DNA of 64,000 bases from positions 61,669,835 through 61,733,834 of the forward strand of contig NC_057726.1 of NCBI RefSeq assembly GCF_004010195.1. The letters are read 5' to 3'. Shown here one piece after another: positions 7,733 through 53,114 of the stretch. Source of the stretch: Chiloscyllium plagiosum (taxonomy: Eukaryota). The first letter of the stretch is position 1. Every line of letters begins with the position of its first letter. The notes beneath the pieces are model-generated. The model made no database searches and was not told the origin of the DNA. It saw only the letters and a list, made by a program, of their open reading frames with translations. The position numbers and the translations under genes were made by a program.

Positions 7733-7851
7733 TTGTAATGCATGTTAATAGCAATTGGAGCATGTTTTCCAATGCATAACGAAATACAATGCACCAGCAT
7801 CCATTAGTATCTTCCATCTTCCCAATATATCTAGAGTCTCAGCTGCTCCGA

Positions 7852-7970
7852 TTACTTCATCACGTTTATTTCTGCATATTGTTCTGTTGTTTGGGTTTTG
7901 ATGCTCTCTTGGAATCAGTTATTTGCAGAGCAACATTAGTCAGATTTTTATCTCCTCTTCCTTCATTGGT
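7852..7970 (-). pseudogene. Gene B terminal cytoplasmic exon with decayed ITIM/ITSM-like motifs
   Basis: Acceptor ttttactttcacag|. Frame 0 reads TNEGRGDKNLTNVALQITDSKRASKPKQQNNMQK*, where LTNVAL corresponds to LxYxxL with Y>N. A shifted frame reads YAEINVMK*. The flanking intron aligns with 33260-33380. Confidence 0.75.
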
Positions 7971-8676
7971 CTGTGAAAGTAAAATTTAATATCGCCCGGT
8001 AGTCCATTGACGACTCATCCACAGAGACAGTCGAGGTTTTAGTAAAAAGGCTTCAGTGGAATTTCGTATCATCAGTTATCAACTTCAGATTGTAACGGGG
8101 TTTAGTATTACTTTCTATCTGCCATATCTCTTCATGCTACCGCCCTACCATAAATATTCTTGATATTCTGGTTTCAACGTCTTGCAAAATGAGTTAGGAT
8201 TTAAGGGAACCGGTTAGTACTTCAACTAAAGTTGCAAAGACATAAAGTGCTGGTGTGCTAAAAGTATTTGCAATGCTGACATTGCAATACCTCCCTTTCA
8301 AGGTCCAGTTTCTGAGCTGTGACAGCCAATAAAATCTATTCATCCAATGGAGAGGCCTCAAGTCACACTTTGCAACTGCCTTTACTACACCGCTTCTGAT
8401 TTTCCAAACCCTGGGACGCAAGGTGAATATGGCGAACTTTGGCTGAAATGTTCGGACCCAGTACAGCGAGGATGTTAAACCTGGACCTTTCAGTTCTCTA
8501 CAGTTTAGTGTAGGACCAAGTGACATTAAGTTATTACAGTAAGTGATAAATCTGTACGTGATCATAGACAGTACCCTCTTTTGCCTGCCCGGGTTTCTTA
8601 TTTTTGCTGGTGCTGGATTCGGCAGGGCAGGCATAAAACAGATTGATCTCAGATTGGCTATAAAATCGATACTTAC

Positions 8677-8730
8677 CACTTTCACCAGGTGAATTTCTTT
8701 TGTTATTGTTCAGGACCATTATTATTGCTG
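8677..8730 (-). pseudogene. Candidate short cytoplasmic exon of gene B
   Basis: Acceptor tttccttttctgaattag| and consensus donor GTG|GTAAGT, about 700 bp from the terminal exon. The 54-bp length does not give a clean phase 1 to 0 join. Confidence 0.45.
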
Positions 8731-9149
8731 CTAATTCAGAAAAGGAAACATGGATAATTTTGATTGTATTCCAGTCTAAAACTGATGTTAAAAGTCTATG
8801 CTTGTTTGATATTTGCCTTGATTTCTATTTCCGACGAAATCGGCAGGAAAGATGACAATTCCCAAACGCTGCCTTTATTTTGACTATTTTTGCAATGGCA
8901 TAAGGATGCCTGTGACAATTTCATGTTTTGCTGCCCATTGCTAATTAGCTTGAACTGATTGTCTTTCCAGGCCATTTCAAAGACTCGTTAAATATCAACC
9001 CTATGACTGAGTGTTATGTCGGCTAGGGCAAGTAAGAAACGTCAACTTCTGCAGCTCCTAATGCTGCGTGGCTTGCTGTGTTCTTCCAGCCTGCTGCCTA
9101 TCTGTTAAGTAAAAAAACAACCGCAGATTTCCTTCCCGAAATGACATTA

Positions 9150-10530
9150 CCAACATGCAAGCAAGGAATAAGAGTAAGCCACTCGACCTTTCAAGCCTGC
9201 GCCGTCATTCGATGAGGTCATGGCTGATCTGGCCGTTTAGTCACCTCTACATTCCTGCATAAATCCGATCATCTTTCATCCACTTGGTAGTTGAAAATTG
9301 ACTACCCCTGCCTTAAAAATATTTAATGCTTGTGCATCTCCTGCCTTTTTAAGAAGCGAATTCCAAAGACTCATAATCCTATGACAGAAACAAAAATACT
9401 CACCTCTGTTTTAAATAGGTGATCACTTATTTTCAAACTATGACCTCTAGTTTTAGATTATAGCACAAAGAGAAAGAATCTTTCAGCATCCATCTGGTCA
9501 AATCTGTTAGGATCTTACATGTTTCAACTGAGTCACCCCGACTCTTGTAAAGTCTAGAGGATACCTATCCTATAGACTATCAAGATGAAGAGAGAAACGA
9601 AAAATGAGGTGAAGCAAAAGAATAATGGGGAACCAGAAAATCGTGGAGGAGTTGAATGAATATTTTGCATCAGTCTTCACTGTAGAAGATACTAATAGCA
9701 TTCCAAATTACAAAATATTCAAGGGGAAAAGGAGGAGATGAAAGAAATATAATAAATATCACTGGAGAAAAAGTGTCAGGGAAACTAATGGGACTGAAGC
9801 CAAATAGATGGAAAGATAAAGGAGAAGTAGTGCATGTAGTATATTTGGAATTTCAGAAAGTATTTTCTAAGATACCACACACTAGATTACTTCATCAGAT
9901 AAAACCCATGGTGCTGGGATAGTACCTGAACATGGATAGAGGTTTGTCTAAGTCATAGAAGACTGAGAGTTGGGATGGAGGGAGGGCATTTTCAGAACAG
10001 AAATCTGGAACTCGTGGAATACCACAGTGATTAGTACTAGGGCCACAACCTTTCCAAATATATATATACATAATTAAAGACTTGGATGCAGAAAATAAAT
10101 GCACAATGGCCAGATTTGTGAATTATATTTAGGTTGGTGGGATACTGAGTGGTGTGAATGACACAAAAAGTTTGCAGAGGGATATAGCCAGGTTGTGTGA
10201 ATGCACCAAAATTTGGCAGATGGAGAATAATGTCGGAGAATGTGATGTGATGGATTTTGGCAGGAAGAATAGATGAGTTGAATATTATTTAAGCACAGAA
10301 AGACTGCAGAAAGCTGAGGAGTGGAGGGACTTGGGAGTCTTCATGCATGAATCATAAAAGGTTAGCACAGAATTTAAGTAGATAACAGAGAAGGCATATG
10401 GTTTCTTGGCCTTTATTTCAAAGAGAGTGGAATGTAAACGTCCGGCTGTTTGGCCAATACTATACCGGCACTAGTTGGACCACAGTTGAAATATTGTGAC
10501 CACGTTTCTTACCCCTATTTCAAATAAGAT
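9150..10530. mobile_element. Old CR1 fragments (minus-strand 3' end at about 9150-9570; plus-strand RT at about 9575-10530)
   Basis: Recognisable degenerate CR1 RT and 3' UTR sequence. Confidence 0.7.
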
Positions 10531-10714
10531 AAAAGAGACGGTTATTTGCTGTTAACGAGGGCAATATTTGGAATGGTTGCCAGGTTGGAACAAATGGTTG
10601 TCACAGACAAAACTATTAAACGCCAGACTAATACATGAGATATCACATGACTAATGCGGCGTATTGTATGTGGTTGTATTTCCCTGTGAGGTTGTGTTAG
10701 TCTGACGTCCCCTC

Positions 10715-10890
10715 TGGGGACGTCCCACAATCCAAAAATGTGCAGATTAGGTGAATTGGAAATGCTAAATTGGCCTTAGTGTTAGGTGAAGGGGTAAATG
10801 TAGGGGAATGGGTCTGGGTGGATTGTGCTTTGGCGGGTCGGTGTGGACTTGTTGGACCGAAGGGCCTGTTTCCACACTGTAAGCAATCTA
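10715..10890 (+). mobile_element. 5'-truncated SINE
   Basis: Matches the 3' half of the 5310-5627 SINE and is absent from the paralogous site near 53880. Confidence 0.75.
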
Positions 10891-10924
10891 AGGCTCCCTG
10901 CTGAAACGTTTCCATCTGAATATG

Positions 10925-13900
10925 AATGTAGAACATAGAACAGTATATCACAGTGCAGGCTTTTGATGTTGTGCTGGTCTTTTATCCTCCTCTAAGATTA
11001 GACTAGCCTACATACCCTTCATTCCACTATCTCCTGTGTGCCTAGCCAAGAGTCACTTAAATGTCCCTAATGTATCTGACTCAACTACGACTGCGGGCAG
11101 TGCTTTCCATGCACTCTCTGACATCTCCCCAAACCTTCCTTCAATTACCTTTAAATTATGCCATCCGGAAACAAGTATCTGGCTATCCACTCTAACTACG
11201 CCTCTCAACATCTTGTACACCTCTATCAAGTCTCCTCTCATTCTTTTTCACTCCAATGAGAAAAGCTTGAGCTCCCTCATAAGACACGCCATCCAATCCA
11301 AGCAGCATCTTGATAAATCTCCTATGCACCCACTCTAAAACGTCGACATCTTTCCTATAATGAGCGACCAGAACTGAACACAAAATTCCAAGTATGGTCT
11401 AACCAGGGTTCTATAGAGCTACTCTTAAACTCAATCACCAGCTCATCAAAGCCAACACACCATACACTCTTCTTAACAACCTTATCAATTTGGGTGGGAA
11501 CTTGGAGGGATCTATGGACATGGATTTCAAGATCCCTCTCTTCCTCCACACTGTCAAAAATACTTTAACCCTGTCTTCTGCATTCAGATTCGACTTCCCC
11601 AAGTGAATGACTTCCCACTTTTCCAGGTAGAAGTCCATCAACCACTTATCAGCCCAGTCTGCATCCTGTCAATATCCCATTGCAGCCTCCAACAGCCCTC
11701 CATACTATCCACAACTCCAGCAACCTTTGTGTCATCGGCCAATTTACAAACCAACTCTTCCACTTTCTTGTCCACATCATTTATAAACATCACGAAGACC
11801 AGATATCCTAGAACTAATCGCTGAAGAACACCACTTATCACTGAGCTCCATGCTGAATACTTTCCATCTACTACCAGTCTCTGTATTCTATAGGCCAGCC
11901 AATTCTGCATCCAGACAGCCAAATTTCCCCGTTTGGCATGCCTCCTTACTTTCCGAATGAATCTACCATGGAAAACCTTACCAAATACCTTGCTAAAATC
12001 CATGTAAACCACATCCATTGCTCTTCTTTCATCAACGTGTTTTGTCACATCCTCAAAGAATTCAGTAAAGTTTGTGAGGCATGATATGTCCCTTCACAAA
12101 GCCATGCTGACTATCTCTAATCAAACTGTGCTTTTCCAAGTATTCATAAATGTCATCTCTCAGAATCCTCTCCAATACTCTGCCCACCACTGATATGACT
12201 GACTGGTCGGTATTTCTCAGGAATGTCCTATTTCCTTTATTGAACAAAGGAATAACATTTGCCACCGTCCAATGATTTGGCAGTACTCCAGTGGAGACTG
12301 AGGACGCAAAGATCCTCACCAAATGTGCAGCAATCTCTTCCCTGTAGTAACCTAGGGTATATCCCATCTGCCCCTGGTGATTTATCTATCCTTATGTTTT
12401 TTAAAATATTCAGCATGGCCTCCTTCCTAACACAAATCTATTCTAGCATACCAGTCTGTTTCACACCGTCCTCAGAAACGTCAAGGTTCCTCTTAGTAGT
12501 GAACACTGAAACAAAGTATTCATTAAGGACCTCCCCTACTTCCTCTGACTCCATATACAAGTTCCCTCCACTATCTTGATCGGCTTACACTCACTCTGGC
12601 CATCTTCTTGTCCCTCACATAAGTGTGGAACGCCTTAGGATTTTCATTACTCTTATCCAATAATGCTTTTTCAAGCCCTTTCCAGCCCTCGTAAGTCCAT
12701 TCTTCAATTCCTTTCTGGCTACGTTGTAATCCTCTAAAGCCCTGTCCGATCATTGCCTCCTCAACCGTAAGCAAGCTTCCTTCTTCTTCTTGACCAGATG
12801 TTCCACATCCCTTGTCACCCAGGGTTCTTTAATCCTACCATCCCCCTTGTCTCAGTGAGATAAACCTGTCCAGCACTATCAGCAGTTTTTTCATGACCAA
12901 CCTCCAGATTCCTGTTGTGCATTTCCCTGAGAGCATCTTTTCCCAGTTGAGGCCTCTTGGTTCCTGCCTAATTGCATTGTAATCCCGCTTCCATCAATTA
13001 AATACTTTCCCATACCGTCTACTCCTTGCCCTCTCCATGAGTACAGTAAAGATCAGGGAGTTGTGATTACTATCACGGAAATGTTCTCGCGCCCAGAGAG
13101 CTCACACCTGGCATGGTTCAGTTCCAAGCACTAAATCAAAAATGGCTTCCACTCTTGTTGACCGATCTACATATTGCATCAGAAAACCTGCCTGTATGCA
13201 TCTGACAAAAACTGCTCCATCCAAAGTATTTGAACAAAGTAGGTTCCAGACAATATTAGGGAAGTTAAAGCCACTCATGAAAACAACCCTTCTACTTCTG
13301 CACTTTTCCAAAATCTGCCTCCCAATCTGTTCCTCCATTTCTCTGTTGCTATTAGGGGCCTGTAGAAATCTCCCAATACATTGACTGCTCCTTTCCTGTT
13401 TCTGACTGCCACCCATAATGACTCTGTATACTAACTCTCCTCGATGATGTCACTTTCTGCAGCTGTGATTATATCCCCCACCTCTTTTGTCTCCCCCAAT
13501 TTCTTTTGAAATATCTAAGCCTTGGAACATCCAACAACTATTTCTGCTCCAGTTTCATCCAAGTTTTCATAATGGCCACAACATCATATTTCCAAGTACT
13601 AATCCATGCTCAGCGTTCATCACCTTTATTCCTGATATTTGTTACATTAAAATAGACTGACTGCACCTTTGCACTATCAAGTGCCTGTCCGTCCTCAAAG
13701 ACTCCCTGCAGGCTGTATCTGACTCTTTCCTACTTACCCCATCATTGATCTGTAGCTCCGGTTACCAAACCCCTGCCAATCTAGTTTAAACCCTCATGAA
13801 GAGCTCTAGCAAGACTCCCTCCCAGATATTGGTGCTCCTCTAGTTCAGATGCAACCAGTCCTTCTTGTACAGGTCCCACCTTTCCCAAAAGGTATCCCAA

Positions 13901-14140
13901 TGATCCACAAAGCTGAAGCCCTCCCTCCTGCACCAGAACTGCAGCCACGTGTTCATCTGAATTCGCTCTCTATTCTTAGCCCCACTAGCACCTGGAACCA
14001 GTAGCATTCCTGAGATTACTACGGTACTTGTCCTGACCTCTAGCTTCCCATCTAAATCTGTACACTCTATTTTAGGCTGTCTTCCCTTTCCCTACCTCTG
14101 TCATTGGTGCCAATGTGTACCATGACTTCTGGCTGCTCTC
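10925..14140 (-). mobile_element. Degenerate CR1 LINE (ORF1 remnant, endonuclease, RT)
   Basis: ORF fragments with GFNFPNI, VYMDFSK and KLADDTK; short tandem-repeat 3' tail near 10930. Confidence 0.9.
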
Positions 14141-16564
14141 CGTCGTTAATAACCTTCAAATGGCTTTGTTTTATTTTGTTTTCAGTCACGACAGGGACAC
14201 TACTCTCCAAAGACGTCCCTTGTCAACAATTGCCTTTTATCGTTAGCTTAATGCCGTAAATACCTCTTCAGGCCGCAGTACTCCAGTTCCTTTATCAAAA
14301 CAATTCCTCTTCACATAAGCAACTTATTTATCGGCAGCTCAGAATTGCATGCCACTGTCATCGTTAACAACCTTCAAACATCAGAGTATCCACCAGCAAA
14401 GACGGGACTGACAATTAAATCCATTTAAATTTCTCTGTTTCAGACCTGATGAGGACAAATTGAGACTTATTTTAACCAGAGATAACGAAAAATATTCCAA
14501 ATCGTGTTCTGTTGGTGCTATACACAAGAAATGATCGCAACGTTGTTTTTGGTGATACCTGGATATGAACAGCGAGGAAAAAGAAACTTGGGCAATGCCG
14601 TTTAATTGATTGAAATGAGAAAGGAAAGTTTTGTGAAAGGAAGATCAGGTCTTATCGACTTTCAGTTTGTTGCAGGTGGCGGTTTACTGAATGAAATTAT
14701 TTGACCTGAATTAGTAGATGAAACGCATTCAGGAATTTGTCGTCAATGGAGTTGCATAAACATTTGGTCGTCTGCTGCAAGGGCTGGGCTGGAATTCATT
14801 ACTACTGTAAAATTCAAAAGCCTCTTAGTGTTTTAACAATCTGTTCAGTGACCGAATCTTCTGACAGAAAGTAATTTATCTTAAGTATTTTATGAAATCA
14901 AAACGACTATGGTAGCTTATATCATCAAAACGTTTCATCATCTTGAACATCGCGATCCTACTCGATGAAGGAGAATAATACCACATGTTATACATCACTG
15001 AAGTTTCTCAACCCTGACAACATTCCAAGAAATGTCTTGGCATCTTTCAGGATTGGGCATAATACTCCAGGCTGAGGCTAGTTCATGTTTAGCATAACTC
15101 ACTTGCCTTATGTTTTATGTCCCACTTGTCCTCCCACCTTGAAAATATTGTGAACACATCACAGACCTTTACTTTCAATTAAATAACCTTTCTCTTGGCA
15201 ATCACTAAAATGTGAATCATTCCTTTTGCTTGCTTTGCAAAAACAGCATTATGGGCATTAGGGCAAGGCAGGATTGTTGTCCATCCCTAATTATCTTTGA
15301 GGGAATCCTCATTATTGATGTTTATGTGGATTAGGAAAGCTAACAGTCTTGTGATTTTCTAATCAACGTATTTAGAGATGTTATAATATATGCCTGGAGC
15401 CTGTGTGATTTGGACTAGGATCTGTTGGCTCAGACGTAGGGACACAATCATTGCACGACAGGAACCCTTGAAGTGGCAGGTGTTGGCTGGAAATGCATGG
15501 CTACCCAACATTTTAACTAATTCGGGACAGAGTTCTGGAAATTATACTGATAATTGGTCCTTTATAAACACTAACCAAAGCTGTGAGGTATTTAATATTG
15601 CAATAGACAGGTAAAATTCCTCTTGCCTCCAACTTGATCTTTTGCTGTGATGTTCAGTTGGCAATTTGGTTGTTGAGTAATTGTTTCCCGTCATTAAAAC
15701 CCATTAACTGACAAATTTGCACATCTAATCATGACACTGTTATCCATGTGTCGCGTTGCAATAAAGATATGTTGAAGAAGTTAAAGACAAGTACCACTGG
15801 AGCAGAGATTAATCTTTGCACACAGGCGTAAATGAGTGTGCCAACTGTTTGTTGCGCTTCCCGCAATTATATTAAATATACTATACATTAATGCTTTCCA
15901 GAGATTTCAGATTCGACAGTTTTTTTCTAAGCTAAAGAACTGAGGACTGAAACGTTTTTAATATCATCATTAGGTTTTATTGGTATCATTGTATGAATGA
16001 ACAGATCAGCAATTAGCTCATTGAATGGTGGATTAGACTTGATCGGCTGAATGGCCTCGTCTTATATTGTCAATCGAATGGAAACGGCATAGAAAGAGAA
16101 TAGTCCGCTCATTAGATGGTGTGGGCTCTCCAGCTACACAGCCAGCCACTCACGCTTATGTTTTTTTTATCTCTACCCTGAAATAATTATAAAATTCCCA
16201 TTGGAATGCCGCAAATGCAACTGTCTCCAATGCACTCTCAATCAGTGTACTCCAGATCCTAACCAAACGTAAAATGCCACTGATTGGATACATAACTCTA
16301 GTGTTTCTGTCTCTTAAAATTTATTTGTAATGCCCATGATCCTTTAGGCCTTTCAACCATTGACTCAACGGACAGTGCATCTTTAATGATTTTGCGTATG
16401 TTTGCGCCCCTTTTAGAGCTCTGTACTTTCTTTACTTTTCCATTGTATTGTTTTTTCAAGCCAAAATACATTGCTTGACATTTATCTACCTAAGAGGAGA
16501 CAGTAGTGATTGATATTGTCACTGCATTCTGAACCCAGAGAACTGGATTAATATCAAATATTTA

Positions 16565-33214: not shown

Positions 33215-33259
33215 TCAAGTTGCGTAAGCCAGCTTGTCATCTCCACTGCTTTGATAAGT
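33215..33259 (-). CDS. Gene A exon 6: terminal cytoplasmic exon TYQSSGDDKLAYAT* (truncated ITIM)
   Basis: Acceptor ttacttccatag|. The exon and its upstream intron align with the paralogous exon at 7852-7970. An out-of-frame continuation encodes SAIYTDLKLSRKERS* (stop 33118-33120). Confidence 0.72.
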   Translation of the reverse strand, partial: TYQSSGDDKLAYAT

Positions 33260-33529
33260 CTATGGAAGTAATGTTTAATTTCACCTGTTAGTCCATTGTC
33301 ACTTCCTGCTTAAGATAATCGAGGTTGGAAATAGAAGTTGTTATGAAATTTCTGCTCATTAGTTCTCAATTTGACAATATTTCCTAAAGTAATAATCTCT
33401 CCCAACTAGAAAGACTAGAGCAATGGATGGCTTGTGATGTCACCATTTCTGTACTAATATGAAATTGTACCACTCTCCTTTCATTGTTGCTGGTCAAAGT
33501 AATCAAGCCCCTTTCTCAATGGTATTATC

Positions 33530-33846
33530 TTAGAATCCCTATTGTGTAGGAACAAGGCCACACCAATTCTCCAAAGAGCATCCCATCCAGACTCACCCCA
33601 CTACCCCATCCCCATAACCCTGCATTGCCCATGGGTAATCCAGCTAATTTACGAATCCCTGGACACTATGGGCAACTTAGCATGGCCAATCCACCTAAAT
33701 TACAAATGTGAGAGGAAACGGGAGCACCATACAGACATGGGGAAATGAGCATGTTCCACGCTCTCAGTTGCCCAAGGCTTGGTTTGAACCCGGATCCCTG
33801 ACACAGTCAGGCAGCACTGCTAACTCATGAGCCACTGTGCCGCCCC
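33530..33846 (-). mobile_element. tRNA-derived SINE, older copy
   Basis: GGGCGGCACAGTGGCTCA head, GGTTCAAACC B box and a body shared with the 5310-5627 copy. Confidence 0.75.
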
Positions 33847-34519
33847 ACATGCACCAAGTCCACATGTACTGCAGTTGTTCAATAAGGCAACTCACCATCG
33901 CCTTCTGAAGATCAATCAGGATGAGCAAGAAGTGTTGGCCTTGTCAGTGATACCCACATGCCATGGGAAATAACTTTAAATTGGCACAATTTACAGATAC
34001 TAAAGGCAACATATATTCGATCAAATCTAAAGGCATTTCTTGAGGTAACTCACATTCAGTCCCAATTCCTAATTTAAACACTGTTGTCCTGCAGATTTAT
34101 TTTCAAGTGCCCATCCAATTTCGTTTTAAAATCATTGATGGTGTCTGCTTTCACTGCCCTAATGAGTTATATGTTCCAGGCCAATATCACTCACGTTAAA
34201 CAGTGCTTCCTTGCATTTCCTTTGTATTTCTGAGACCAAACCTTAAATCTGTGTTCCCTAGACTTTGCGTTTATTAATGGGAAACATTTCTCCTTGTCTA
34301 TCCTCTTTAAACCCACCATAATGTTGTATGCCTGTATTATGTCATACCCTCAATATGCTTTTGTCAAGGTCAACGCTCCCAGCATTCCAAGTATCATAGA
34401 TTTACCATTTCCAAGCTGAAGAACAATCCTCTTATATTTCACGTGAAGTCACTCAAGAGCCCACTTTTCCTAAATTTTGACGACCACAACTGCGTTTAGT
34501 ATTCAATTTGCTATCTAAG

Positions 34520-34727
34520 TCTAGATTAGAGTGGTGCTGGAAATGCACAGCAGTTCAGTCAGCATCCAAGGAGCAGTAAAATCGACGTTTCGGGCAAAAG
34601 CCCGAAATTGTGCCCAAAAAAATTGATTTTACTGCTCCTCGGATGCTGCCTGAACTGCTGTGCTTTTCCAGCACCACTCTAATCGAGACTCTGGTTTCCA
34701 GTGTCTGCAATAATTGTTTTTACCAAG
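34520..34727. mobile_element. Penelope-derived hairpin element (second family)
   Basis: Inverted arms gattagagtggtgctggaaa and tttccagcaccactctaatc, flanked by TATCTAAG repeats. Confidence 0.75.
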
Positions 34728-37700
34728 TTGTTATCTAAGCAAATCTATAAAGCTTCAACATTACTTCCTTACTTTAGTACACAGTGCCACCATTTATGAA
34801 TTTCGAGAAAACATATGGTGTGACAACTATACTTTTATTTTTTTGCCACATTAAATATTGATGAAGGAGCACCTTCAGCTCTCCTCCGTCTTGTACTCTC
34901 TTCAGAAAGTTATCAATCAGACTATGCTGTTTCTCCTTACCCATACTAGAAAATTCATTATCTTCACTTTGCTAAATTACACATGACTAACTAGTCCATA
35001 TCCTGTTACAATCCATTTTTCTATCATCGTGTGTTTGCTGCTGCTACTTTGGCTTCATCAGCAAATTTTGAAATTTGATTCTGTGATCCAATATTTACGT
35101 CTTTAAATAAAACAACAAAAATATGTTATTGACTGATTTATTTCACTGGTTTGGTTCCTGTCAGTGTTTCGATCTTCTACCTCTTTATATTGTGTTGTTG
35201 TTCTGGTTAAATCTTGATGTTAAAGGTATTTGTTTGTTATTGTAACCGATTAAAAGAAGCAGGCTAATGCTTAAATGAAAATAGCAAGCAGAAAAATGTC
35301 ATATAGCCGTTTAATTTCTTTACTTACCTGCAGCTAGTCTGTTCTGCTTACAGAATCGGTCATTCTCGGTAGAATATGTCTTTGTTGAGATTTTAAATGT
35401 GTTGCACTGCTTTTCATAATCTTTCCTTTTGAGATAACTTCCCAGTTCAACTTATCCAACCCTGTCTTTGCAATTTTGCAAGTGTCTTTTGGTTAAGTTT
35501 CAGACACAGATTTTAGATAGAAGATTCTCATTTTCAAACCAAATGTGAAAATTCTTTATGGTATGATCACTTTCTGTGGTGGTTCGTTTATTGCAACATC
35601 ATCAAACAACTTTTCTCATTCAATATTACGTGTACTAATTTAATCTGTTCCACAAAGTATTGTTCTTAGAAACTGTCATGAATACATCCCATGAACTGCT
35701 TCTGAAATCAAATAACCCCTCGTACTTTGCAATTTCAGACAAGAAAAATTAATTTACTCAGCCTCTCAATGGACACCCACTTCATCTCAGGGACAATTTA
35801 AGGTAGGCTTACCATGCAGTCTCCAATATGAATACACCTTACATTAAACCAAAAGCAAATAAATGTAGAGTCTGGAAACCTGAAACAAAAACAGAAATTG
35901 CTGCAGAAACTCAGCAGATCTGGCAGCATCTGTGGAGAGAAAGCGCAGTTAGCATTTGAGTCCAGTGACCCTTTTTCAGAAATGCTTCACCAGAAATTTC
36001 TGTTTTTCTTTCGTCCTTCTTTAAACTTTTAAAGCAAAGTGCACACAATTTCCAGGAGTTATGTCACCAAAACCTGGCTCAATTGGAGCAAGATTTCTTT
36101 ATTCCTTTTGCTACAAGCCTCTCAGAATAAAAATCACTGTGTCATTAATCTTCCTAATGAGTTACTCTACCTGCATACTGACTTTCTGTGTTGCTTGTGT
36201 AACTATACCCACACGGCTCTGAACATCAGATTTACACCTGCTAAATTAAGGTATCCATTTCAATTAACAGTAAAATCACCAACAACTATTGCAGCACTTT
36301 TTGTCCCATCCATGGTATTTCTTGACTTCTATGAAATTAGCTGCTGATCGGTGGACTATAAACTATGTCCACTTGTAATTTCTTCTCCTTGTTATTTCTT
36401 ATCTCATTCTCACAATTATTGCATATTTATATTCTCATCAAAAGTAATGTCGCATGATTGCAGTGATCAGTAATCTTTTAACAGAACCAATACATCTCCT
36501 GTCGCTTTGATTCTAATCCTATTGTAATGTCGCACACTCTTTAACATTCGATATCCAGTCTTGGTTACCTTGTAAATATGTCTCTGCATTGACTATCAAA
36601 TTATAGCCGTTTTCTTGCATTCATGTGATCAATTCATCAAGCCCGTTACAAACTCTGTCTACATTCAACTGAGGAGCCTTCAATCTGACTGTATGTTTTC
36701 ATCTCACTTTGCATAATCAGAAAATTGAAATATACACGTTCTGTCTTGAATTATTTGCATAGGTTTGAAATACGTCACGTTCTTGCATGCAGTAATATCA
36801 GTCTTCCAACCTTAAAAGATTTGGTTTGAGCACACTGTTTGCTTCGTATCTGTCAAACAATTCTCTATCAATGCTAATGTAATATTCTGAACGCAAGTTC
36901 TTGGCTGTCACGTGACCTTTTGGAATTCCATTTGGAAATGCCGACACACGATAATTTGTGATTTCCCTGTCTTCTTCTTTGCAACAGGAAACCTCCAGAC
37001 GCTTTAAAATATTTGTCAGACATGGTATTTCTTATGTCAAACTGTGCTGACTTATTCTAATCATACAACAAATTTCTAACTGATTTGTTTATACTTTAAT
37101 AATATATTCTGGAATTTTGATAAGAAACGAGGCTGATCTAAATGCCCTGCAATACCCTGTTTCCATTTTATTTTTCCTTGAATGTGAGATTGCACTCTTC
37201 ATTTCCCAATCTGATGTGAATGGTTTTGGAAATAAGGAATTTTGTTTGAAAATAGCTAGGATAGATTTCTTCATTGCTTGTGAAAATTTCTGCATCAGCA
37301 TTACCAATATTTACTTTAGCAAGTTCTTTTCTTTTTGTATACTTAATAACGCTCTTACGACCTATTTTTATATTTTTAGCTATTTTACTTTTATTTGTTT
37401 CCATTTTATCAACTTTTCGATGCTTCCCTCTTACTTATTGAGTCACCCCCACTTCTCAGTCGAGTTTCCATTCTTCGCAAAATACAAACCTCTTCAAAAA
37501 TTTTAAACCATATTTGTCTACCTGAGTGAGCCGTGGATAATATTTCTTGCTGAGTTTTTATTATTCCATTAACTGAATTTTATTTTTTTTAATTGTGATT
37601 TTGAATTATACCTACTATGCATAATATCAGCTTAATATTATTTAAATTATATAATCATCTATTTCCACCTCATTGTAACGTATTGATTTGGATGAAGTTT

Positions 37701-39774
37701 GTAATTCTTGTCCGTGGCTACAATTATGAATCCTACCATGGAATTCAATGGAATTTATTGACACTATTTCCCAGCAGACATTACAATGTTAGTGCTACTT
37801 AATGATTCCTCGTGAGACAACATTAAATCTATAATAACTTCATTCAGAGGCAGTTGTGTAAGTATTTCTGCCTGAAACTATCACAAAAATAAATTCTAGA
37901 AACTACTGTTCCAGATCATTCTGAGCAATTCAATTGACGCTGCTTATGTAAAGATTAAATTCACCCATGATAAATGCATTTCCTTTATGACAAGCTCAAA
38001 AGTGTTAGCTCAATGCTTGGTCCACAGTACACTTTCTCTTATGGGCCCGACAAACTGCTCCTGCTATCAATCGCTGACTCCTGATATTTCCATTTACCGT
38101 GGACAGTGAGTCTGTTTCGTGATTTTCTTACTTATTTTGTTACATTATCCTTTATGATTAGAGACACCCTCCTCTTTTACGACTCCGAACTCCTTTTAAA
38201 ATGTGTGTACCCTGGCATGTTTATTTCTCAATCTTCCTCACTTTGTAGTAATGTCTCAGTTGTAGTGCTCAAATCAATTCCATTTACAATACCTATATTT
38301 GTGTAAATAACATGCATATTTTCTTGAAGATGCATCATGCATTTAGAAGAAAAGAATCTTTAATTTCACTGTTTTACTTCTCATTCTTACATTGACTTTA
38401 TTCACAGATGAAGCACTAATTCTAAACCCATAGTCCCATAGAGCTTTTTTTTCTGCCTACACCACTGTATTGTTCTAATGTCTCAATATCTTATTCTATC
38501 TCTCTGGATTGCTAAAATCTTGCTTCACCGTATTCCTGTCACGTGTATACCTGATTATAGCTATCGTTACACCTTTATCCGGGGCACTAGTCCCACTAGT
38601 GTAAGTAGTGCCCACGGAAATTAAATTGTTTTGTGTTTGCCAAATAATCAACACCCTCCCTTGTTGCAACAGTATCATTTGAGCCATGTGTTGAAGTCTC
38701 TCGTCTGCTGTATCCTATGCCAACAGGCGTCTGGCTTAGGTGACAATTTCAGAGATTATAACTTGATACCTGTTCCATTTTTAATTGAGGCATTTACTTC
38801 TAAAACTCTTACAGCATAACATCATTCCTTGTTACACATGTGTCATTGGTTCCCATGGCAACTAGATTCTCCCCTCTCACTCCAGGTTCCTTCTCAGTCA
38901 TGAGGTGATGTCCTCAACCTTAGAACCAGGCAGATAGCATAGCATTTGGAACTCGAAGGGTCAACTGTTAATGGGGATAATTATTTCCCAGTTTGTTCTG
39001 TACAAGTATTTCAATTTAGCAACTTGGCACTTGCAAATATCTTATTTTTCAATGAATTTTAATTATGATGGTTCAGAATCAGAAGTTTCTCCTGTTTAGT
39101 TTATCTGACCGAAGGCGGGTCCAAGTTAATTACCAAAGCACAGCAAAATGCTGTGATTATTTATGAATCTATGGGCAAGGCAAAGAAGTTAATGTTGAGT
39201 TTACCCTATTCTAAATCCGTACACATGAAAAATGTAACAGCCAGAAAGAGTGCAGTGGTCATTTAGAATGGTGTCTGGGATGAAGACCTTCAGTCACTCT
39301 GGGTAGATTAGACAACTTTTGATTGTTTTCCACAGGGCAGTCACAGACAAGGGAAGATTTCTTAAAGTTGCTCACAATTATGAGACGTTTCAATAAAGTA
39401 AGTCAAATATGTTTCCAGTTGTGGGTCTGTCAGTACCCAGACGATACATTTATGATTGCTAATAGCATAAGCCTGGGAAGATGACGATTTATAGAGACTT
39501 CTACTCTAGTCTGAAATGCACTTCCTGAATATCTGATAGAAGCAGAGTCAATGGAAGATTTAAAAATGAAGTAGAGATTTCCTCATAAATACAGAAACAC
39601 AAGTTCAAGGACAAAATGTGAGGAACTGGGCTGATTGAATATTTGTTTTTAACGACTTAAAGAGCCGTAATAGCCCCCTTCAGTCTGTAAATGAATCAAC
39701 CTTCCCAGATTATTGCAATACATCTTGTTATTCCTTCTTAACTGGTTTTCTCTGAAGAAAGATTGTCACCCTAC

Positions 39775-39818
39775 CGGCTGTTGAGCTTCATCCTCTACCA
39801 CAGCATGTCTCCTAACAC
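39775..39818 (-). CDS. Gene A exon 5: short cytoplasmic exon GVRRHAVVEDEAQQP
   Basis: Strong polypyrimidine acceptor tcttttctttcctttag| and donor CCG|GTAGGG. Its 44 bp (phase 1 to 0) bridge the TM exon and the phase-0 last exon. Confidence 0.65.
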
Positions 39819-40349
39819 CTAAAGGAAAGAAAAGATCCCTAAGTTTAATTCAAATTACGAAAAAAAACCACAAATGTAACCACAAATATATACATATGTT
39901 GCCACTTATTCAGATGAGATTCACTCGATTGACACCTGGATTGAGTGGGTTGTCTTATGTGGATCAGTTGGATGGACAAGGCTTCTTTCCATTGGGGTTT
40001 GGAAGAAAGAGGCGTAACTTTATTGCATGTATCAAAGCGTGAAACATTTTGACAAGGTGAATGTAGGGAGCATGTTATCATATGAGTGAATCCTGAACCA
40101 TGGTATACAGTTTACGAATTAAAGGTTGTCCTTTGTGGACAGAAATATGGAGTCTTTTCTGTTGTCTTAGAAGATTGTACCAGTTTGGAACTCTCTGCTC
40201 CTGAATATGGTGGTGGTCACATGACTGAATATTTAAAGGCAAATTTACTGAGATTCTTGTTTGACAAGAGGAATGAAATTTTACTTGTGGATAGTTGGGA
40301 ATGTGGAATTACAAGCACTAACTGCTTTACCATAACTTTATTGAATGAT

Positions 40350-43300
40350 GGAACATAGAACATAGAACATAGAACAATACAGCACAGAACAGGTCCTTCG
40401 GCCCACGATGTTGTGCCGAACATTTGTCCTAGCTTAAGCACCTATCCATGTACCTATCCAATTGCTGCTTAAAAGTCACCAATGATTCAGATTCTGCCAC
40501 TCCCACAGCCAGCGCATTCCATGCCCCCACCACTCTCTGGGTAAAGAACCTACCCCTGACATCCCCCCTATACCTTCCACCCTTCACCTTAAATTTATGT
40601 CCCCTTGTAACACTCTGTTGTACCCAGGGAAAAAGTCTCTGCCTGTCTACTCTATCTATTCCCCTGATCATCTTATCAACCTCTATCAAGTCACTCCTCA
40701 TCCTTCGCCGTTCCAATGAGAAAAGGCCTAGCACTCTCAACCTATCCTCGTACGACCTATTCTCCATTCCAGGCAACATCCTGGTAAACCTCCTCTGCAT
40801 CCTCTCCAAAGCTTCCACATCTTTCCTAAAGTGAGGCGACCAGAACTGCACACAGTACTCCAAATGTGTCCTTACCCCAAGGTCCTGTATAGCTGCAACA
40901 TCACCTCACGACTCTTGAATTCAATCCCACTGCTAATGAACGCTAATACACCATAGGTCTTCTTACAAGCTCTATCCACCTGAGTGGCAACTTTCAAAGA
41001 GCTATGAACATAGACCCCAAGATCCCTCTGCTCCTCCCCCTTAGTAAGAACCCGACTGTTAATCCTGTATTCCGCATTTTTATTTGTCCTTCCAAAATGG
41101 AAAACCTCACACTTGACAGGGTTGAACTCCATCTGCTACTCCTCAGCCCAGCTCTGCATCATATCTAAGTCCCTTTGCAGCTGACAACAGCCCTCCTCAC
41201 TATCCACAACTCCACCAATCTTCGTATCGTCTGCAAATTTACTGACCCACACTTCGACTTCCTCTTCCAAGTCATTAATAAAAATTACAAACAGCAGAGG
41301 ACCCAGAACTGATCCCTGCGGAACTCCACCTGTAACTGGGCTCCAGGCTGAATATTTACCATTTACCACCAGTCTCTGACTTCGACTGGTTAGCCAGTTC
41401 TCTATCCAACTGGCCACATTTCCCACTATCCCATGCCTCCTGATTTTCTGCACAAGCCTACCATGGGGAAACTTAACAAATGCCTTACTAAAGTCCATGT
41501 ACACTACATCCACTGCTCTACCGTCATCCACATGCTTGGTCACCTCCTCAAAGAATTCAATAAGACTTGTAAGGCAAGACCTACCCCTCAAAAATCCATG
41601 CTGGCTGTCCCTAATCAAGCAGTGTCTTTCCAGATACTCATAAATCCTATCCCTCAGTACCCTTTCCACTACTTTGCCTACCACTGAAGTAAGACGAACT
41701 GGCCTGTAATTCCCGGGGTTATCCCTATTCCCTTTTTTGAACATGGGCACAGCATTCGCCACTCTCCAGTCCCCTGGCACCATCCCCGTTGACAGTGAAG
41801 ACGAAAAGATCGTTGCCAACGGCTCTGCAATTTCCTCTCTTGCTTTCCACATAATCCTAGGATATATCCCTTCAGGCCCGGGAGACTTGTCTATCCTCAA
41901 GTTTTTCAAAATGACCAACACATCTTCCTTCCTAACAAGTATCTCCTCTAGCTTACCAGTCCGTTTCATACTCTCCTCTTCAACAATACGGTCCCTCTCA
42001 TTTGTAAATACTGAAGAAAAGTACTCATTCAAGACCTCTCCTATCTCTTCCGACTCAATACACAGTCTCCCACTACTGTCCTTGATCGGACCTACCGTCG
42101 TTCTTGTCATTCTCATGTTTCTCACATAGGCATAAAAGGCCTGGAGGTTATCCTTGATCCTACCCGCCAAAGATTTTTCATGCCCTCTCTTAGCTCTCTT
42201 AATCCCTTTCTTCAGCTCCCTCCTGGATATCCTGTATCCCTCCAACGCTCTGTCTTCCTTCCCTGACAGCCTGTGCTCCCAACTTATGCTCCTCAGATCC
42301 TGTCTTACAGCATCGTATTTACCCTTCCCCCAATTGTAAAACCTACCCTGTTGCACGCACCAATCTCTCTCCATATCCAAGGTGAAGTCACAGAATTGTG
42401 GTCACCATTACCAAAATGCTCACCCACTAACAAGTCCATCACTGGTCCCGGTTCGTTACCAAGTACCAAATCCAATATGGCCTCCCCTCTGGTCGGACAA
42501 TCTACATACTGAGTTAGAAAAGCTTCCTGGACACATTGCACAACCACCGCCCCGTCCAATCTACTTGAACTAAAGAGCTTCCAATCAATATTTGGGAAGT
42601 TGAAATCGCCCATGACTACTACTACCCTGTGGCTTCTGCACCTTTGCAAAATCTGTTTCCCAATCTGTTTCTCCACATCTCTGCTGCTATTGGGGGGCCT
42701 ATAGTAAACACCCAACAAGGTGACTGCTCCTTTCCTATTTCTGACTTCAGCCCATACTACCTCCAAAGGCAGATCCTCCTCGAACTGCCTTTCTGCAGCC
42801 ATTATACCATTTCTACTTAGCAACGCCTCACCCCCTCCTTTTTAACCACCCTCCCTAATCTTACTGAAACATCTGTAACCAGGAATCTCCAACAACTATT
42901 CCTGTCCCTCTTCTATCCACGTTTCAGTGATGGCCACAACATCGTAGTCTCATCCACGCTTAAGTTCACCCACCTTATTTCTGATACTCCTTGCATTGAA
43001 GTATACACACTTGAACCCATCTCTGTGTCCGCAAGTATTCCCTGTCAGTGATACCTTCTCCACAGTCTCCCTACATTCTTGGACATCCTGAGAAACAGCT
43101 TGCCTACTTGCTGGACTACAAGTCCGGATCCCATCCCCCTGCCAAATTAGTTTAACCCCCCCGAAGAGTGCTAGCAAACCTACCTCCCAGGATATTGGTG
43201 CCCTTCTGGTTCAGGTGCAACCCGTCCGGCTTGTACAGGTCCCACCTTCCCCAGAATGCAGTCCAATTGTCCAAATACCTGAAGCCCTCCCTGCCACGTG

Positions 43301-43930
43301 TTCAACTGCACTCTCTCCTTATTCCTTGCCTCACTGTCACGTGTCACCGGCCACAACCCAGAGATGACGACTATGTCCGTCCGAGCTTTTAGCTTCCAGC
43401 CTAACTCCCTGAGCTCCTGAATGACCTCCCCACCCCTCTTCCTACCTATGTCGTTGTTGCCAATGTGCACCACGACTTCTGGCTGCACACCCTCCCCCTT
43501 AAGGATTCTGAAGACATGGTCAGAGACGTCTCGGACCTTCGCACCCGGGAGGCAACAAACCAACCGAGAGCCTCGCCCATGTCCACAGAACCGCCTGTCC
43601 GTCCCTCTAACTATAGAGTCTGCTATAACTAGCGCTCTCCTACTCTCCCCCTTTCCCTTCTGAGACTCAGAGCCGGACCTCGTGCCAGAGACCCGGTCAC
43701 TGCAGCTTACCTCTGCTACGCCGTCCCCCCCAACAGTATCCAAAGCGGTATACTTATTGTTGAGGGGAACGACCACAGGGGATCTTTGCACTGCCTGCTT
43801 CCTCCCCTTCCCACCTCTATCTGTTACCCAGCTACCTCTGTTCTCTGGCGTAACTATGTCCCTGTAGCTTCTATCTATCATCCTCTCAGCCTCTCGAATA
43901 ATTCTCAGTTCATCCAACTCCAGCTCCCTG
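40350..43930 (-). mobile_element. Relatively young CR1 LINE in intron 4 of gene A (ORF1 SGNH-esterase-like; ORF2 EN-RT with an internal deletion)
   Basis: ORFs 43180..43917, 42305..42823, 41136..42380 ([15 protein letters not shown]) and 40429..40863; (TATGTTC)n tail. Confidence 0.95.
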
Positions 43931-44507
43931 GAGTTGACGGGAGAGACGGGAAAGATTGAATGTTCTATTGTCCTTTTAATTCATATACTTGCTTGTGTGA
44001 GTAATTTACTAAGTGCTCAAGCTACACCAGTAGCCTGCATTACCAAGTGTTACACCTCAGTTAGGAGTATATTATTTTCACAAATCCGGTCTTGGTACTA
44101 CTCACAACAGAGCAGACCTTTCCTCTTCTCGGATTTTAATTTGACAATCTAGTTCACATTGCGAAATTACTTCAAATTTAGCACCTGGAAGTAAAGTAAA
44201 ACAGTTTGGATACTCCGATATCACTTCAAAATGAATACAATTACACTTCTGACTTTAGAATAGGAAGGTTACGTATAAATCGAGTGGACAGTTCGAATGA
44301 GGGGATGAAATAAATCCACTCTATATTGTCATGTCGTATGGCTAATCACATAACTATTTGTGATATCCGCTTCATCCTTCAAAGGTGTAGGAAAGTGTTC
44401 ACATTTCCTCTGCAGTTAATCACGACACACCTGCACTTTGCGACTTAAAACGAGGATGACTGGGCCTTGGAAATTAAAAATATTCAGTGAAATAACGAAC
44501 GTCTTAC

Positions 44508-44636
44508 CAGCTGATGCCTTTAACTCGAGTCTTGTCAAAATTATTATCAATAGTAAAATTGCCAGCGAGCCAACTGCCCATCTAGAGATCAGCAGATAAT
44601 CTTTCCCTACAGGATCAATAACATTTGAATAAGAAA
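44508..44636 (-). CDS. Gene A exon 4: stalk and transmembrane segment with Arg
   Basis: Acceptor tgctttgcag|, donor G|GTAAGA, 129 bp, phase 1-1, open frame VSYSNVIDPVGKDYLLISRWAVGSLAILLLIIILTRLELKASA. Confidence 0.82.
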
Positions 44637-45744
44637 CTGCAAAGCATCACAAGATTTAGACAATGAGAATCGAGGTTAGGCAGAAGACGAACTGCAAAGG
44701 ACTGTCCCAGAGGATCCCGTCCATACATGTGAATCGGGGCTGATCCCTTTTATTTCAACCGTGTGATATGTGTTCAAGGATTATACTGTGGATCACATGA
44801 AAAATCAGTAATACAATTTATGGAGGGAACAGTTCCACAGAGATTTGGCAATCTTCAATTTGGGTTGTTTCTTAAGAAGAAAACACATTTTATGAAACTC
44901 GTCAATTTATATCAGCACCTGCTGCAAAACTGTCAAATTCTTAACTTCATCAGATTTAATGCAGATTACCTCCTGTAACATTTGGCAATTAATACGTGCA
45001 TCTTGCAATTATGTAACTCCTTTAACATGACCAGGTGTCCAACGCATTCCAGAGGTCCGTTATCAATACAATCCAGCCACTTACAGCAGATTAGAACAAA
45101 TGGATCAGAAACATAAATTTCTGGAGAAAGTCAACTGGTCTGGCAGCATCTCGTGGCGAGCGAAACCGAGTTAACTTTTCGAGTCCAGTGATTTTTTTTT
45201 TTCAAACAGATAGCAGCGAGGAACAAAGTGGTATATATACTGAAGACAGAGTTTGGTACTGTGGGGAGTTTGGGTAGGGAAACGAGTGAGTGGATCGGCA
45301 GAGATGGAACCAAAAGAATGGAACAACATGTGCACAGACAAAGGGATATATGACAACATGCCAGGAAGAAAAGAATGCTGGCAATGTGGAATATAACTAG
45401 ATGCTAACGAGTTGACTGTCCTGAAAGCTGTTCATGTCCTTAGTAGGACTTCGAGTGTGGGAGTAGGCAAAGGCCATAGAAGAAGGTGTTCAGGCCCGAA
45501 AATTGTTGAATTCGACATCATGAGTCCTGAAGGGTACAAGGTCCCCAAGCAGCAAATGAGATTCGGTTCTTCTAGCTTGCTGGAAAGCTGCAGCAAGTCC
45601 GAGACAGAAATGTTGGCCAGGGAACATGGTACTGTCTTGTATTGACAGGCAACTGAAAGCTAGATGTCATTTTTGAGGACAGAATGAAGATTATTTGCGA
45701 AGGAATTGCCTAGTCTGTGTTTTCTGTCCCCAGTGCAGAAGATA

Positions 45745-46974
45745 CAGCATTGCCTCTACACCACTGAAGCCAGATGCCAACTCGAGGACACCACTTCCTA
45801 CCGCCCCCTCGACCATGACCTTACCCCATCACCAAACCACCATTTCCCAGACCATACAGAACCTCATTACCTCAGGAGATCTCCCACCCAGAGCTTCCAA
45901 CCTCATAGTCTGGGAACACCACACTGCCCGGTTCTACCTCCTTCCCAAGATCCACAAGCCTGGCCACCCTGGCTGACCCATTGTCTCAGCATGCTCCTGC
46001 CCCACTGAACTCATTTCTACCTACCTCAACACTGTCATATACCCCCAGTCCAGGAACTCCCCACATACGTTCGAGACACCACCCACGCCCTCCACCTCCT
46101 CCAAGACTTCCGTTTCCCCGGCCCCCAATGCCTCATCTTCACCATGGATATCCAGTTCCTCTACACCTCCATCTGCAATTACAAGGGCCTCCAAGCCCTC
46201 CGTTTCTTTCTCTCCCGAAGGCCCCAACAGTACCCTTCCACTGACACTCTCATTCGTTTGGCTGAACTTGTCCTCACCCTTAACAATTTCTCCTTTGAAT
46301 CCTCCCACTTCCTCCAGACCAAAGGGGTAGCCATGGGCACCCGTATGTGACCCAGCTATGCCTGTCTCTTTATTGGCTACGTAGAACAGTCCATCTTCCA
46401 TAATTACACCGCCACCACTCCCCACCTCTTCCTCTGCTACATTGATGACTGCATTGGCGCAACCTCGTTTTCCCGTGAGGAGGTTGAGCAATTCATCAAC
46501 TTCACCAACACATTCCACCTCGACCTTAAATTTACCTGGACCATCACTGACACCTCCCTCCCCTTCCTGGACCTCTCCATCTCCATTAATGACGACCGAC
46601 TTGACACTGACACTTTTTACAAACCCACCGACTCCCATAGCTACCTGGATTACACCTCGTCCCATCCTACCTCCTGCAAAAATGCCATCCCATATTCCCA
46701 ATTCCTCCGCCTCCGCCGTATCTGCTCCCAAGAGGACTAATTCCACCATAGAATACACCAGATGGCCTCCTTCTTTAGAGACCGCAATTTCCCTTCCCAT
46801 GTGGTTAAAGATGCCCTCCAACCTATCTCATCCACATCCCGCACCACCGCCCTCAGACCCCACCCCTTTAACCGCAACAAGGAAAGAACACCCCTGGTGC
46901 TCACCTTCCACCCTTCGCATAAACCAAATCATCCGTTGACATTTTTGCCACCTCCAAACAGACCCCACCACCAG
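45745..46974 (+). mobile_element. Penelope-like element RT fragment, with an inverted fragment at about 45390-45740
   Basis: FYLLPKIHKP, TMDIQFLYTSI, QTKGVAMGT, YIDD and LPFLDL motifs typical of PLE RT. Confidence 0.88.
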
Positions 46975-47483
46975 GGGTTATCTGGGAATGATTATCTGGG
47001 GAGGGATTAGACAGCCACGGCTGACAAAGGAAGTCAGGAAATGTATTAAAGAAAAAGAGAGATCATATAAAGTGGCCAAGAGCACTGGGAAATCAAAAGG
47101 TTGGGAAGTCTACAAAAACAAACAAAGGATAACAAAGAGAGAAATGAGGAAGGAGAGGATTAAATATGAAGGTAGGCTAGCCAGTAATATTAGAAATGAT
47201 AGTAAAAGTTTCTTTCAATACATAAGAAACAACGACAGGCAAAAGTAGATATTGGGCCACTTCAAACTGATGCTGGAAGCCTAGTGATGGGAGATAAGGA
47301 AATAGCAGGAGAACTTAATAAGTACTTTGCGTCAGTCTTCACAGTGGAAGACATGAGTAATATCCCAACAATTAAAGGGAGTCGGGGGCTGAGTTAAGTA
47401 TGGTTGCCATTACAAAAGAGAAAGTGCTAGTGGGCGACATCCTAAAGTTCTGAGGGAGGTGGCTGAGGAAATAGCGGAGGCGT
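46975..47483 (+). mobile_element. CR1 ORF2 fragment running into the gap
   Basis: SKSFFQYI and ELNKYFASVFT motifs. Confidence 0.8.
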
Positions 47484-48160: not shown

Positions 48161-48834
48161 TACTTCCAATGCTAAATAAATCGTTTTTCGCATTTTGTCT
48201 CTTTAATGTACGTACAGTGGATATTTCGTTCCATTCTGGATGCCATATAAATAAAAAGATTGACGCAAGAAATGAATAACTGAATCAGAAATCTATTGTC
48301 TACGATGTTAAGTGACGATTTGCTGAAACTGGAACCTGATTTACAAGCAATGTTTGCCAGTTCATCATATGGTTCTACGTAAAACATAACAATGATAACA
48401 GGATGAAACGACTTGAGGTGGTGAAGAATAAATCAATTGACTTTCTCCCCTTCAGTATCTCAGGGTCACACTGATTTGTTTTCGTTCCTCAGAGACCAGA
48501 GTCTCTTCTAAGATCACTGGATCGCCAGTGTGTTTGACAGCTGGAACATTGACCAGTGAATTCAGAATGCACAGGCGTAGACCTTTTAAAATAAATGTAA
48601 ACCTGTTGGGACATATGTACAGGAAGGGAAAGCAATGACCTTTATGCTGTGGAACTGGAAATTGTGTTAATGATGTGCATAGCTTCCTATTGAAAATATA
48701 AAGCGCCAATTGTGCACAAGCCAGGATGAAGATAAGCCCCATAATTCGTGCTCCCATTCTTTGCACTGCAGTGCCACCATTGTGTAAAGGGCTGTTAGCC
48801 CCATCTCACCTCTGGAATTCTGCCCTTTTCTCCA

Positions 48835-53092: not shown

Positions 53093-53114
53093 CGCCTGGT
53101 ACAATGTAACTTAC

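What the first reader, a model, noticed from the sequence alone, without database searches (positions are those of the whole stretch)
7852..15385. Hollowed-out paralog B: promoter and tail retained, ectodomain and TM missing
Seen: about 1.7 kb of gene A upstream sequence is duplicated at 10535-15385. Homology stops at the position equivalent to about 53705, just before the ATG, and abuts a CR1 fragment. Within about 2.6 kb come a candidate short exon and a clear paralog of the last exon. I found no leader, V, C1 or TM exon between them. Inference: an old tandem duplicate lost its middle by deletion, showing birth-and-death turnover of a multigene receptor cluster.
Basis: partly seen in the sequence, partly recalled or inferred. 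Interest (0 to 1): 0.7.

Follow-up and report, generated by a model that had tools for sequence, protein, structure and literature searches.

The report
Hollowed-out shark inhibitory receptor pseudogene
In a cluster of shark immune-receptor genes, one copy has its promoter joined directly to two frame-shifted tail exons, with the six exons in between missing; the join also occurs in related sharks, so it is likely an old, dead deletion scar of a kind common in such clusters.

Summary
On the minus strand, a paralogous promoter and 5'UTR end at the start-codon position (10516-10530). They run straight into the middle of an old intronic CR1-type element that three intact paralogs (U1, D2, D3) carry at the same place. 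Six exons are missing: leader, V, C1, TM and two cytoplasmic exons, about 6.6-7.4 kb in those paralogs. Two tail exons remain (8657-8558 and from 7970); both are frameshifted and the ITIM tyrosine is lost. Contigs from three organism labels and four studies bridge the junction, so it is not a misassembly. Corrections: B belongs to the ITIM/ITSM-tailed subtype found outside the window, not to gene A's subtype. The CR1 was cut by the deletion, not inserted there. A SINE and a 3.2-kb LINE split the 'retained' promoter. Microhomology at the join is not above chance, and no excess conservation was seen. Verdict: an ordinary unprocessed deletion pseudogene in a paired V-C1 receptor cluster, comparable to the human LILRA3 deletion. 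One oddity: a second promoter remnant (about 19235-21900) also stops at its start codon. The scan noted similar scars in other shark clusters (unchecked).

The parts
14168..16553 (-). Mid and distal upstream region of gene B, paralogous to the promoters of A, U3, D2, D3 and of a promoter remnant B' 92 kb away
   Evidence: 15101-15371 is 86% to B', 84% to D2/D3, 77% to A
10935..14150 (-). Decayed LINE (CR1-type; label recalled) inserted about 225 nt upstream of the former ATG, ignoring the SINE
   Evidence: 65-71% to the window element at 40.6-43.5 kb, whose ORF carries RVT_1; absent from U3, A and D2 promoters
10888..10934 (-). Promoter sliver between the two insertions
   Evidence: aligns to U3, A and D2 promoters, so there were two separate insertions
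10712..10891 (.). Short high-copy element (SINE-like; label inferred) inserted about 190 nt upstream of the former ATG
   Evidence: up to 40 hits in 464 kb, 82-87% to the best copies
10516..10713 (-). Proximal promoter and 5'UTR of gene B, ending at the start-codon position; no usable ATG
   Evidence: 68-72% to U1, U3, D2; the only ATGs in 10400-10720 stop after 1-2 codons
10516..10530 (.). Deletion junction (breakpoint lies within this stretch)
   Evidence: both homologies overlap here; bridged by contigs in X1, X9, X13, X16, X19
9264..10531 (+). Old intronic CR1-type fragment, cut by the deletion
   Evidence: 72% over about 700 bp to the same-position element in D2 and D3, 68-75% in U1, versus 57-66% to other copies; runs 300-380 bp further in D3 and U1
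8558..8657 (-). Relic penultimate cytoplasmic exon: AG and GT intact, 100 nt versus 108 nt in D3, frameshifted, stop at codon 3
   Evidence: profile E 2e-27
7820..7970 (-). Relic last exon: ITIM LTYATL changed to LTNVAL; a 10-nt loss puts the second tyrosine motif out of frame
7734..9260 (-). Unique intron and 3' DNA colinear with U1, D2, D3
   Evidence: 69-75% identity
19235..21888 (-). Second promoter remnant ('Z') of the D1/D4/D5/D6 subtype, also ending at or within about 25 nt of the start codon, with no gene behind it
33215..53688 (-). Gene A (context): leader 53688-53634, V 53423-53115, C1 50237-49941, TM 44636-44508 with Arg, cytoplasmic exon 39818-39775, last exon from 33259 that stops after LAYAT

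Best explanation
Gene B's promoter is joined at the start-codon position to the middle of a downstream intron and its two remaining tail exons are frameshifted, so it is likely the dead remnant of an inhibitory-type V-C1 receptor gene that lost about 7 kb in one old deletion. Shown: the join, the six missing exons, the broken tail exons, the two transposons in the promoter, and the same join in related organisms. Inferred: the ancestor had eight exons and an ITIM plus ITSM-like tail, as D3 has; one non-homologous deletion removed leader, V, C1, TM and two cytoplasmic exons; what is left decays without selection and makes no protein. The order of the deletion, the frameshifts and the insertions is not known.
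For: Colinear paralogs on both sides of a sharp join. ATG-to-join distance is 7,379 bp in U1 and about 6.6 kb in D2. No exon relic between. The join is bridged by at least 31 letters on both sides in 5 of the 8 runs laid: X1 (organism A, possibly the source sample), X9 and X13 (organism B, two studies), X16 and X19 (organism C, one study). An organism C contig covers the last exon without gaps and another covers the short exon with its one gap outside it, so both frameshifts are shared. Distal promoter and tail both point to the D2/D3/U1 subtype. Divergence across organisms on the promoter side (5 of 159, 2 of 48) does not differ from the CR1 side (9 of 151, 9 of 109; Fisher p 0.28 and 0.51).
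Against: No intact ortholog of B was found, so the ancestral gene is inferred from paralogs 25-30% diverged. B's tail is about equally far from U1, D2 and D3 (73-75%), and its proximal and mid promoter are not assignable to a subtype (67-74%). D2 and D3 are 95-99% tandem twins, so a deletion across two such copies would look the same. The conservation test is short and weak, and both counts lean towards a more conserved promoter. X5 and X18 showed no contig over the join, and X8's was too short on one side to count. Transcription was not tested.
Confidence: 0.7

Rival explanations
1. A longer deletion fused the promoter of one inhibitory-type copy to the tail of a later copy and removed one or more whole genes; the remnant is equally dead.
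For: The cluster holds near-identical tandem pairs (D2/D3), chimeric genes (U1 is 89% U3-like up to C1 and D2/D3-like after it) and other orphan pieces.
Against: It needs an extra, unseen gene; distal promoter and tail are consistent with one lineage.
Confidence: 0.2
2. The gene body was lost but the promoter is kept as a working element (decoy promoter, enhancer or non-coding RNA start) that tunes expression of neighbouring receptors.
For: Two of three independent promoter remnants found in 864 kb stop within about 25 nt of the ATG (post hoc chance 0.0005-0.002). The join is fixed across three organism labels, and both relic exons keep their acceptor AG.
Against: 3.4 kb of transposon DNA splits the promoter about 190 nt from the ATG. 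No significant excess conservation. The chance figure uses a window chosen after seeing the data, and n is 3.
Confidence: 0.07
3. The hollow is an assembly error and the exons are missing only from this assembly.
For: The assembly has 101,977 contigs and many gaps in this cluster; D3's leader and V fall in such a gap.
Against: No N within 30 kb of the join. Independent contigs from organisms B and C cross it with their own substitutions. No second copy of B's promoter turned up off this contig. The relic exons are themselves broken.
Confidence: 0.01

Closest known systems
Human LILRA3 6.7-kb deletion (PMC6760026, one passage seen)
   Same: A deletion of similar size in a tandem Ig-superfamily paired-receptor cluster removes the first six exons and all Ig domains, leaving the 3' end.
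   Different: LILRA3 is a soluble receptor and the deletion is a human polymorphism; B had an inhibitory-type tail, and the join was found under all three organism labels. The families are not shown to be homologous beyond the Ig fold.
Cartilaginous-fish V-C1-TM receptors with automatic names 'tyrosine-protein phosphatase non-receptor type substrate 1-like', 'NCR3LG1-like', 'tapasin-related protein-like' (Heterodontus, Scyliorhinus, Mobula, Narcine, Heptranchias, Callorhinchus)
   Same: B's relic last exon aligns best to the tails of these proteins; the neighbours have the same leader-V-C1-TM-tail layout.
   Different: B has no ectodomain, TM or open frame. The names are automatic; I found no paper on the family in the searches listed.
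Paired opposing leukocyte receptor clusters (KLRC/NKG2, Ly49, PIR, KIR, LILR; PMC3210942 and PMC8562567, passages seen)
   Same: Inhibitory-type and likely activating-type members side by side, pseudogenes, unequal crossing-over, ectodomains shared between opposite tail types.
   Different: Signalling, ligands and expression are untested in the shark family.
UrIg/UrIg2 non-rearranging VJ-C1 genes of sharks (PMC12227049; abstract and parts 2-3 of 8 read)
   Same: Single-exon V followed by C1-set domains in elasmobranchs.
   Different: UrIg2 has nine or more C1 domains and no such tandem family is described in the parts I read; the genes here have one C1 and tyrosine-motif tails.

Membership tests
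Unprocessed (duplicated) pseudogene made by internal deletion | Colinear with intact paralogs, introns and promoter included | tested here: met
Unprocessed (duplicated) pseudogene made by internal deletion | Disabling lesions (no start codon, missing exons, frameshifts) | tested here: met
Unprocessed (duplicated) pseudogene made by internal deletion | Lesion is genomic, not an assembly fault | tested here: met
   junction bridged in 5 of 8 runs laid, three organism labels
Unprocessed (duplicated) pseudogene made by internal deletion | Neutral evolution of the remnant | tested here: inconclusive
   promoter side versus CR1 side p 0.28 and 0.51 on 48-159 bases
Unprocessed (duplicated) pseudogene made by internal deletion | No functional transcript | not tested
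Paired inhibitory/activating receptor cluster | Members with ITIM/ITSM-like tails and uncharged TM | tested here: met
   U1, D3, D6 have two motifs, D2 one; TM without Arg at the outer position (motif patterns recalled)
Paired inhibitory/activating receptor cluster | Members with a charged TM residue and no inhibitory motif | tested here: met
   A, U3, D1, D4 have Arg in the outer TM and no ITIM match; D4's TM exon appears frameshifted
Paired inhibitory/activating receptor cluster | Opposite signalling through phosphatases and adaptor chains | not testable with these tools
   needs cell assays
SIRP family (V-C1-C1; definition recalled) | Two C1 domains after the V domain | tested here: not met
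   one C1 exon per gene; the V-C1-C1 model P0001 joins D2's V and C1 to D3's C1 and tail
SIRP family (V-C1-C1; definition recalled) | Orthology by synteny or tree; CD47 binding | not tested
   no synteny or tree against SIRPs was run
UrIg/UrIg2 | Three or more C1 domains | tested here: not met

The most novel reading that the evidence does not exclude
Genes in this cluster are switched off by deletions anchored at the start codon, which leave the promoter behind as a working decoy or enhancer that sets how often neighbouring receptors are expressed; B and the second remnant Z would be two independent cases.
Probability: 0.07. Interest if true: 0.6.

Novelty: new member of a known kind. Interest (0 to 1): 0.17.

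Why it matters
It matters little on its own. It documents gene turnover in a little-described shark paired-receptor family and shows that an inhibitory-type member next to gene A was lost before three related organisms split. It also warns annotators that the 'SIRP-like' V-C1-C1 model of this locus fuses two genes. It would matter more only if the start-codon-anchored breakpoints proved to be a pattern or the orphan promoters proved active.

Tried and rejected
Microhomology-mediated joining: BLAST overlaps of about 15 nt suggested it, but 12 tests of paralog 5'UTR words against the junction-equivalent site gave a best chance of 0.08, the rest 0.53-0.83; not supported, though 25-30% drift could hide a short one. 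CR1 insertion or CR1-CR1 recombination as the cause: the element is ancestral and continues past the join in U1 and D3 (D2's copy ends about 40 nt earlier, its own break), and the promoter side has no CR1 at the join. Middle part moved elsewhere: orphan V pseudo-exons L005-L007 were compared; L006 keeps its own 5' region, only 52% like B's. My first guesses were wrong and were dropped: the TM at 48160-48360, the 54-nt 'short exon', and the idea that only the last exon remains (corrected). Search for an intact B ortholog: the tail search returned only P0001 among 9 candidates, and none of 92 proteins under 520 aa (of 152 held; 60 longer ones dropped) stood out as B-like; this is weak evidence. 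No RNA holder was listed; this is no evidence either way. Runs X5 and X18 had no cover over the join; a hole proves nothing. The control CR1 row may be off-register and was not used. Literature: seven searches found no paper on this gene family or locus; the library lacks most subscription journals, and no supplements were read. PMC10751288 (passages) only mentions VJ-C1 genes in general.

Full report
Setting. The window is G000:C17:61669835-61733834. Gene A lies on the minus strand: leader 53688-53634, V 53423-53115 (Pfam V-set), C1 50237-49941 (C1-set), TM 44636-44508, a 44-nt cytoplasmic exon and a last exon from 33259. A search with A's V exon gave 53 matches in the genome, eight of them on the minus strand between 61.51 and 61.82 Mb. 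I fetched 400 kb around the window and later 400 kb more. I name the neighbours U3 and U1 (upstream of A) and D1-D6 (downstream of B). Relatives in sharks, rays and chimaera carry automatic names such as 'tyrosine-protein phosphatase non-receptor type substrate 1-like'. Of 92 such proteins under 520 aa, 48 have an ITIM/ITSM-like pattern in the last 90 residues; no shuffle control was run.

Two subtypes. A, U3, D1 and D4 have an Arg in the outer TM and a tail with no ITIM match; A, D1 and D4 stop at LAYAT. U1, D2, D3 and D6 lack that Arg and keep one or two tyrosine motifs. I read these as likely activating and inhibitory types; an earlier unchecked note suggested this frame, and I checked the sequences myself. 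B's tail region matches U1, D2 and D3 along more than 1 kb, but A only over 72-148 bp. So B is an inhibitory-subtype gene, not a copy of A.

The 5' side. Window 10516-10713 aligns with the proximal promoters of U1, U3, D2 and A at 67-72% and reaches the ATG position. No ATG with more than two codons behind it remains. Upstream come a 180-bp high-copy element (10712-10891), a 45-bp promoter sliver, a 3.2-kb LINE, and then promoter homology again from 14168. The distal part is 86% like a promoter remnant B' at 61.78 Mb, 84% like D2/D3 and 77% like A. It belongs to a duplicated block (window 14.6-45 kb against 61776.6-61807 kb, about 80%).

The 3' side. Window 7734-10531 is colinear with the last introns of U1, D2 and D3, including the CR1-type fragment. 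That element runs 300-380 bp past the join in D3 and U1; D2's copy ends about 40 nt before it. The deletion therefore cut an element that was already there. In the paralogs the missing stretch holds leader, V, C1, TM, a 44-nt exon and a 111-nt exon and measures 7,379 bp in U1 and about 6.6 kb in D2. None of the six exons has a relic near B. Two exons remain. The one at 8657-8558 is 8 nt shorter than D3's open 108-nt exon and stops at codon 3; this exon is also broken in U1 and D2. The last exon has lost the ITIM tyrosine, and a 10-nt deletion removes the second motif from the frame.

Artefact test. No N lies in window 1-47483. Of 8 runs laid, 5 have a contig that bridges 10516-10530 by 31 or more letters on both sides: X1 (organism A, possibly the source), X9 (10290-10689, 16 differences), X13 (10380-10689, 14 differences), X16 and X19 (10422-10578, 11 differences). 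X8 crossed with too little on one side; X5 and X18 had no cover. The join is therefore older than the split from organism C, about 7% diverged here. Gap-free or nearly gap-free organism C contigs over both relic exons show that the frameshifts are as old.

Mechanism. The simplest account is one non-homologous deletion of about 7 kb, followed or preceded by decay. Microhomology was not above chance. A longer deletion across two tandem copies cannot be excluded, since D2 and D3 are 95-99% alike and U1 is a chimera. Divergence on the promoter side of the join is lower than on the CR1 side but not significantly so. RNA was not tested.

One oddity. Window 19235-21888 is the promoter of the D1/D4/D5/D6 subtype with no gene behind it. 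Its homology also ends at or within about 25 nt of the ATG, and the duplicated block has the same join. A survey of the upstream regions of 18 of 19 V exons in 864 kb found B, Z and Z's copy as promoter-without-V remnants, besides D3, whose V lies in a gap. B' ends about 690 nt before the ATG position and fell outside that survey's 400-nt limit. Two of three independent remnants ending at the start codon has a post hoc chance of 0.0005-0.002. It is a lead, not a finding.

Comparison. The human LILRA3 deletion is 6.7 kb and removes the first six of seven exons (PMC6760026, passage). Pseudogenes, unequal crossing-over and birth-and-death are described for KIR, LILR, KLRC and Ly49 clusters (PMC8562567 and PMC3210942, passages). 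The family is not SIRP by domain count (definition recalled) and not UrIg (PMC12227049, parts read). Seven paper searches found nothing on this family or locus. Earlier unchecked notes of this scan report similar deletion scars in other shark receptor clusters.

Verdict. Observation confirmed, interpretation supported with corrections. It is a real, old and ordinary deletion pseudogene: new member of a known kind, interest 0.17.

Noticed in passing
window 19235-21888 (-) and G000:C17:61781352-61783459: Second promoter remnant (D1/D4/D5/D6 subtype) ending at about the start codon, shared by the duplicated block, so a whole gene was lost there before that duplication.
   Followed up: partly
G000:C17:61745018-61749343 versus 61809021-61813293: U1 is a chimera: promoter to C1 is 89% like U3 (Arg-type gene), while TM and tail are of the ITIM type. 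A's V is closest to D2's (91%) while its 3' half follows U3 (about 80%).
   Followed up: partly
P0001; G000:C17:61598-61622 kb: The database V-C1-C1 'SIRP-like' model joins D2 and D3 across an assembly gap and skips the TM exon and D3's open 108-nt exon.
   Followed up: yes
G000:C17:61621694-61622354: D2 has a 520-bp tandem duplication of its proximal promoter and leader exon (97% alike).
   Followed up: no
G000:C17:61575845-61576003: Orphan A-type last exon with no leader, V, C1 or TM found upstream; two N gaps of 2-3 kb lie nearby, so it may be another truncated gene or an assembly loss.
   Followed up: no
window 33259-33215; D1, D4: A, D1 and D4 share a stop that cuts the first tyrosine motif at LAYAT; D2 stops right after its first ITIM; U3's cytoplasmic-exon acceptor reads GG.
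   Followed up: partly
L005, L006, L007 (C71337, C73742, C17:62098124): Three similar orphan V pseudo-exons with a TAA stop, 79% like A's V, whose homology to the cluster ends just after the V exon.
   Followed up: partly
window 10690-10715: Both organism B contigs that cross the join leave the window sequence at 10689, while an organism C contig matches 10673-10715, so organism B likely differs near the SINE.
   Followed up: no
window 2494-7732 and 28522-29169: A pair of ~600-bp direct repeats (2538-3102, 7143-7714; 78%) flanks decayed retrotransposon-like frames; a third solo copy lies at 28522-29169. Observed only.
   Followed up: no
G000:C17:61.89-62.29 Mb and 68.9-70.7 Mb: Eleven more V exons of the family, most paired with a C1 exon, lie at 61.89-62.29 Mb, and about two dozen more V matches at 68.9-70.7 Mb.
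   Followed up: no
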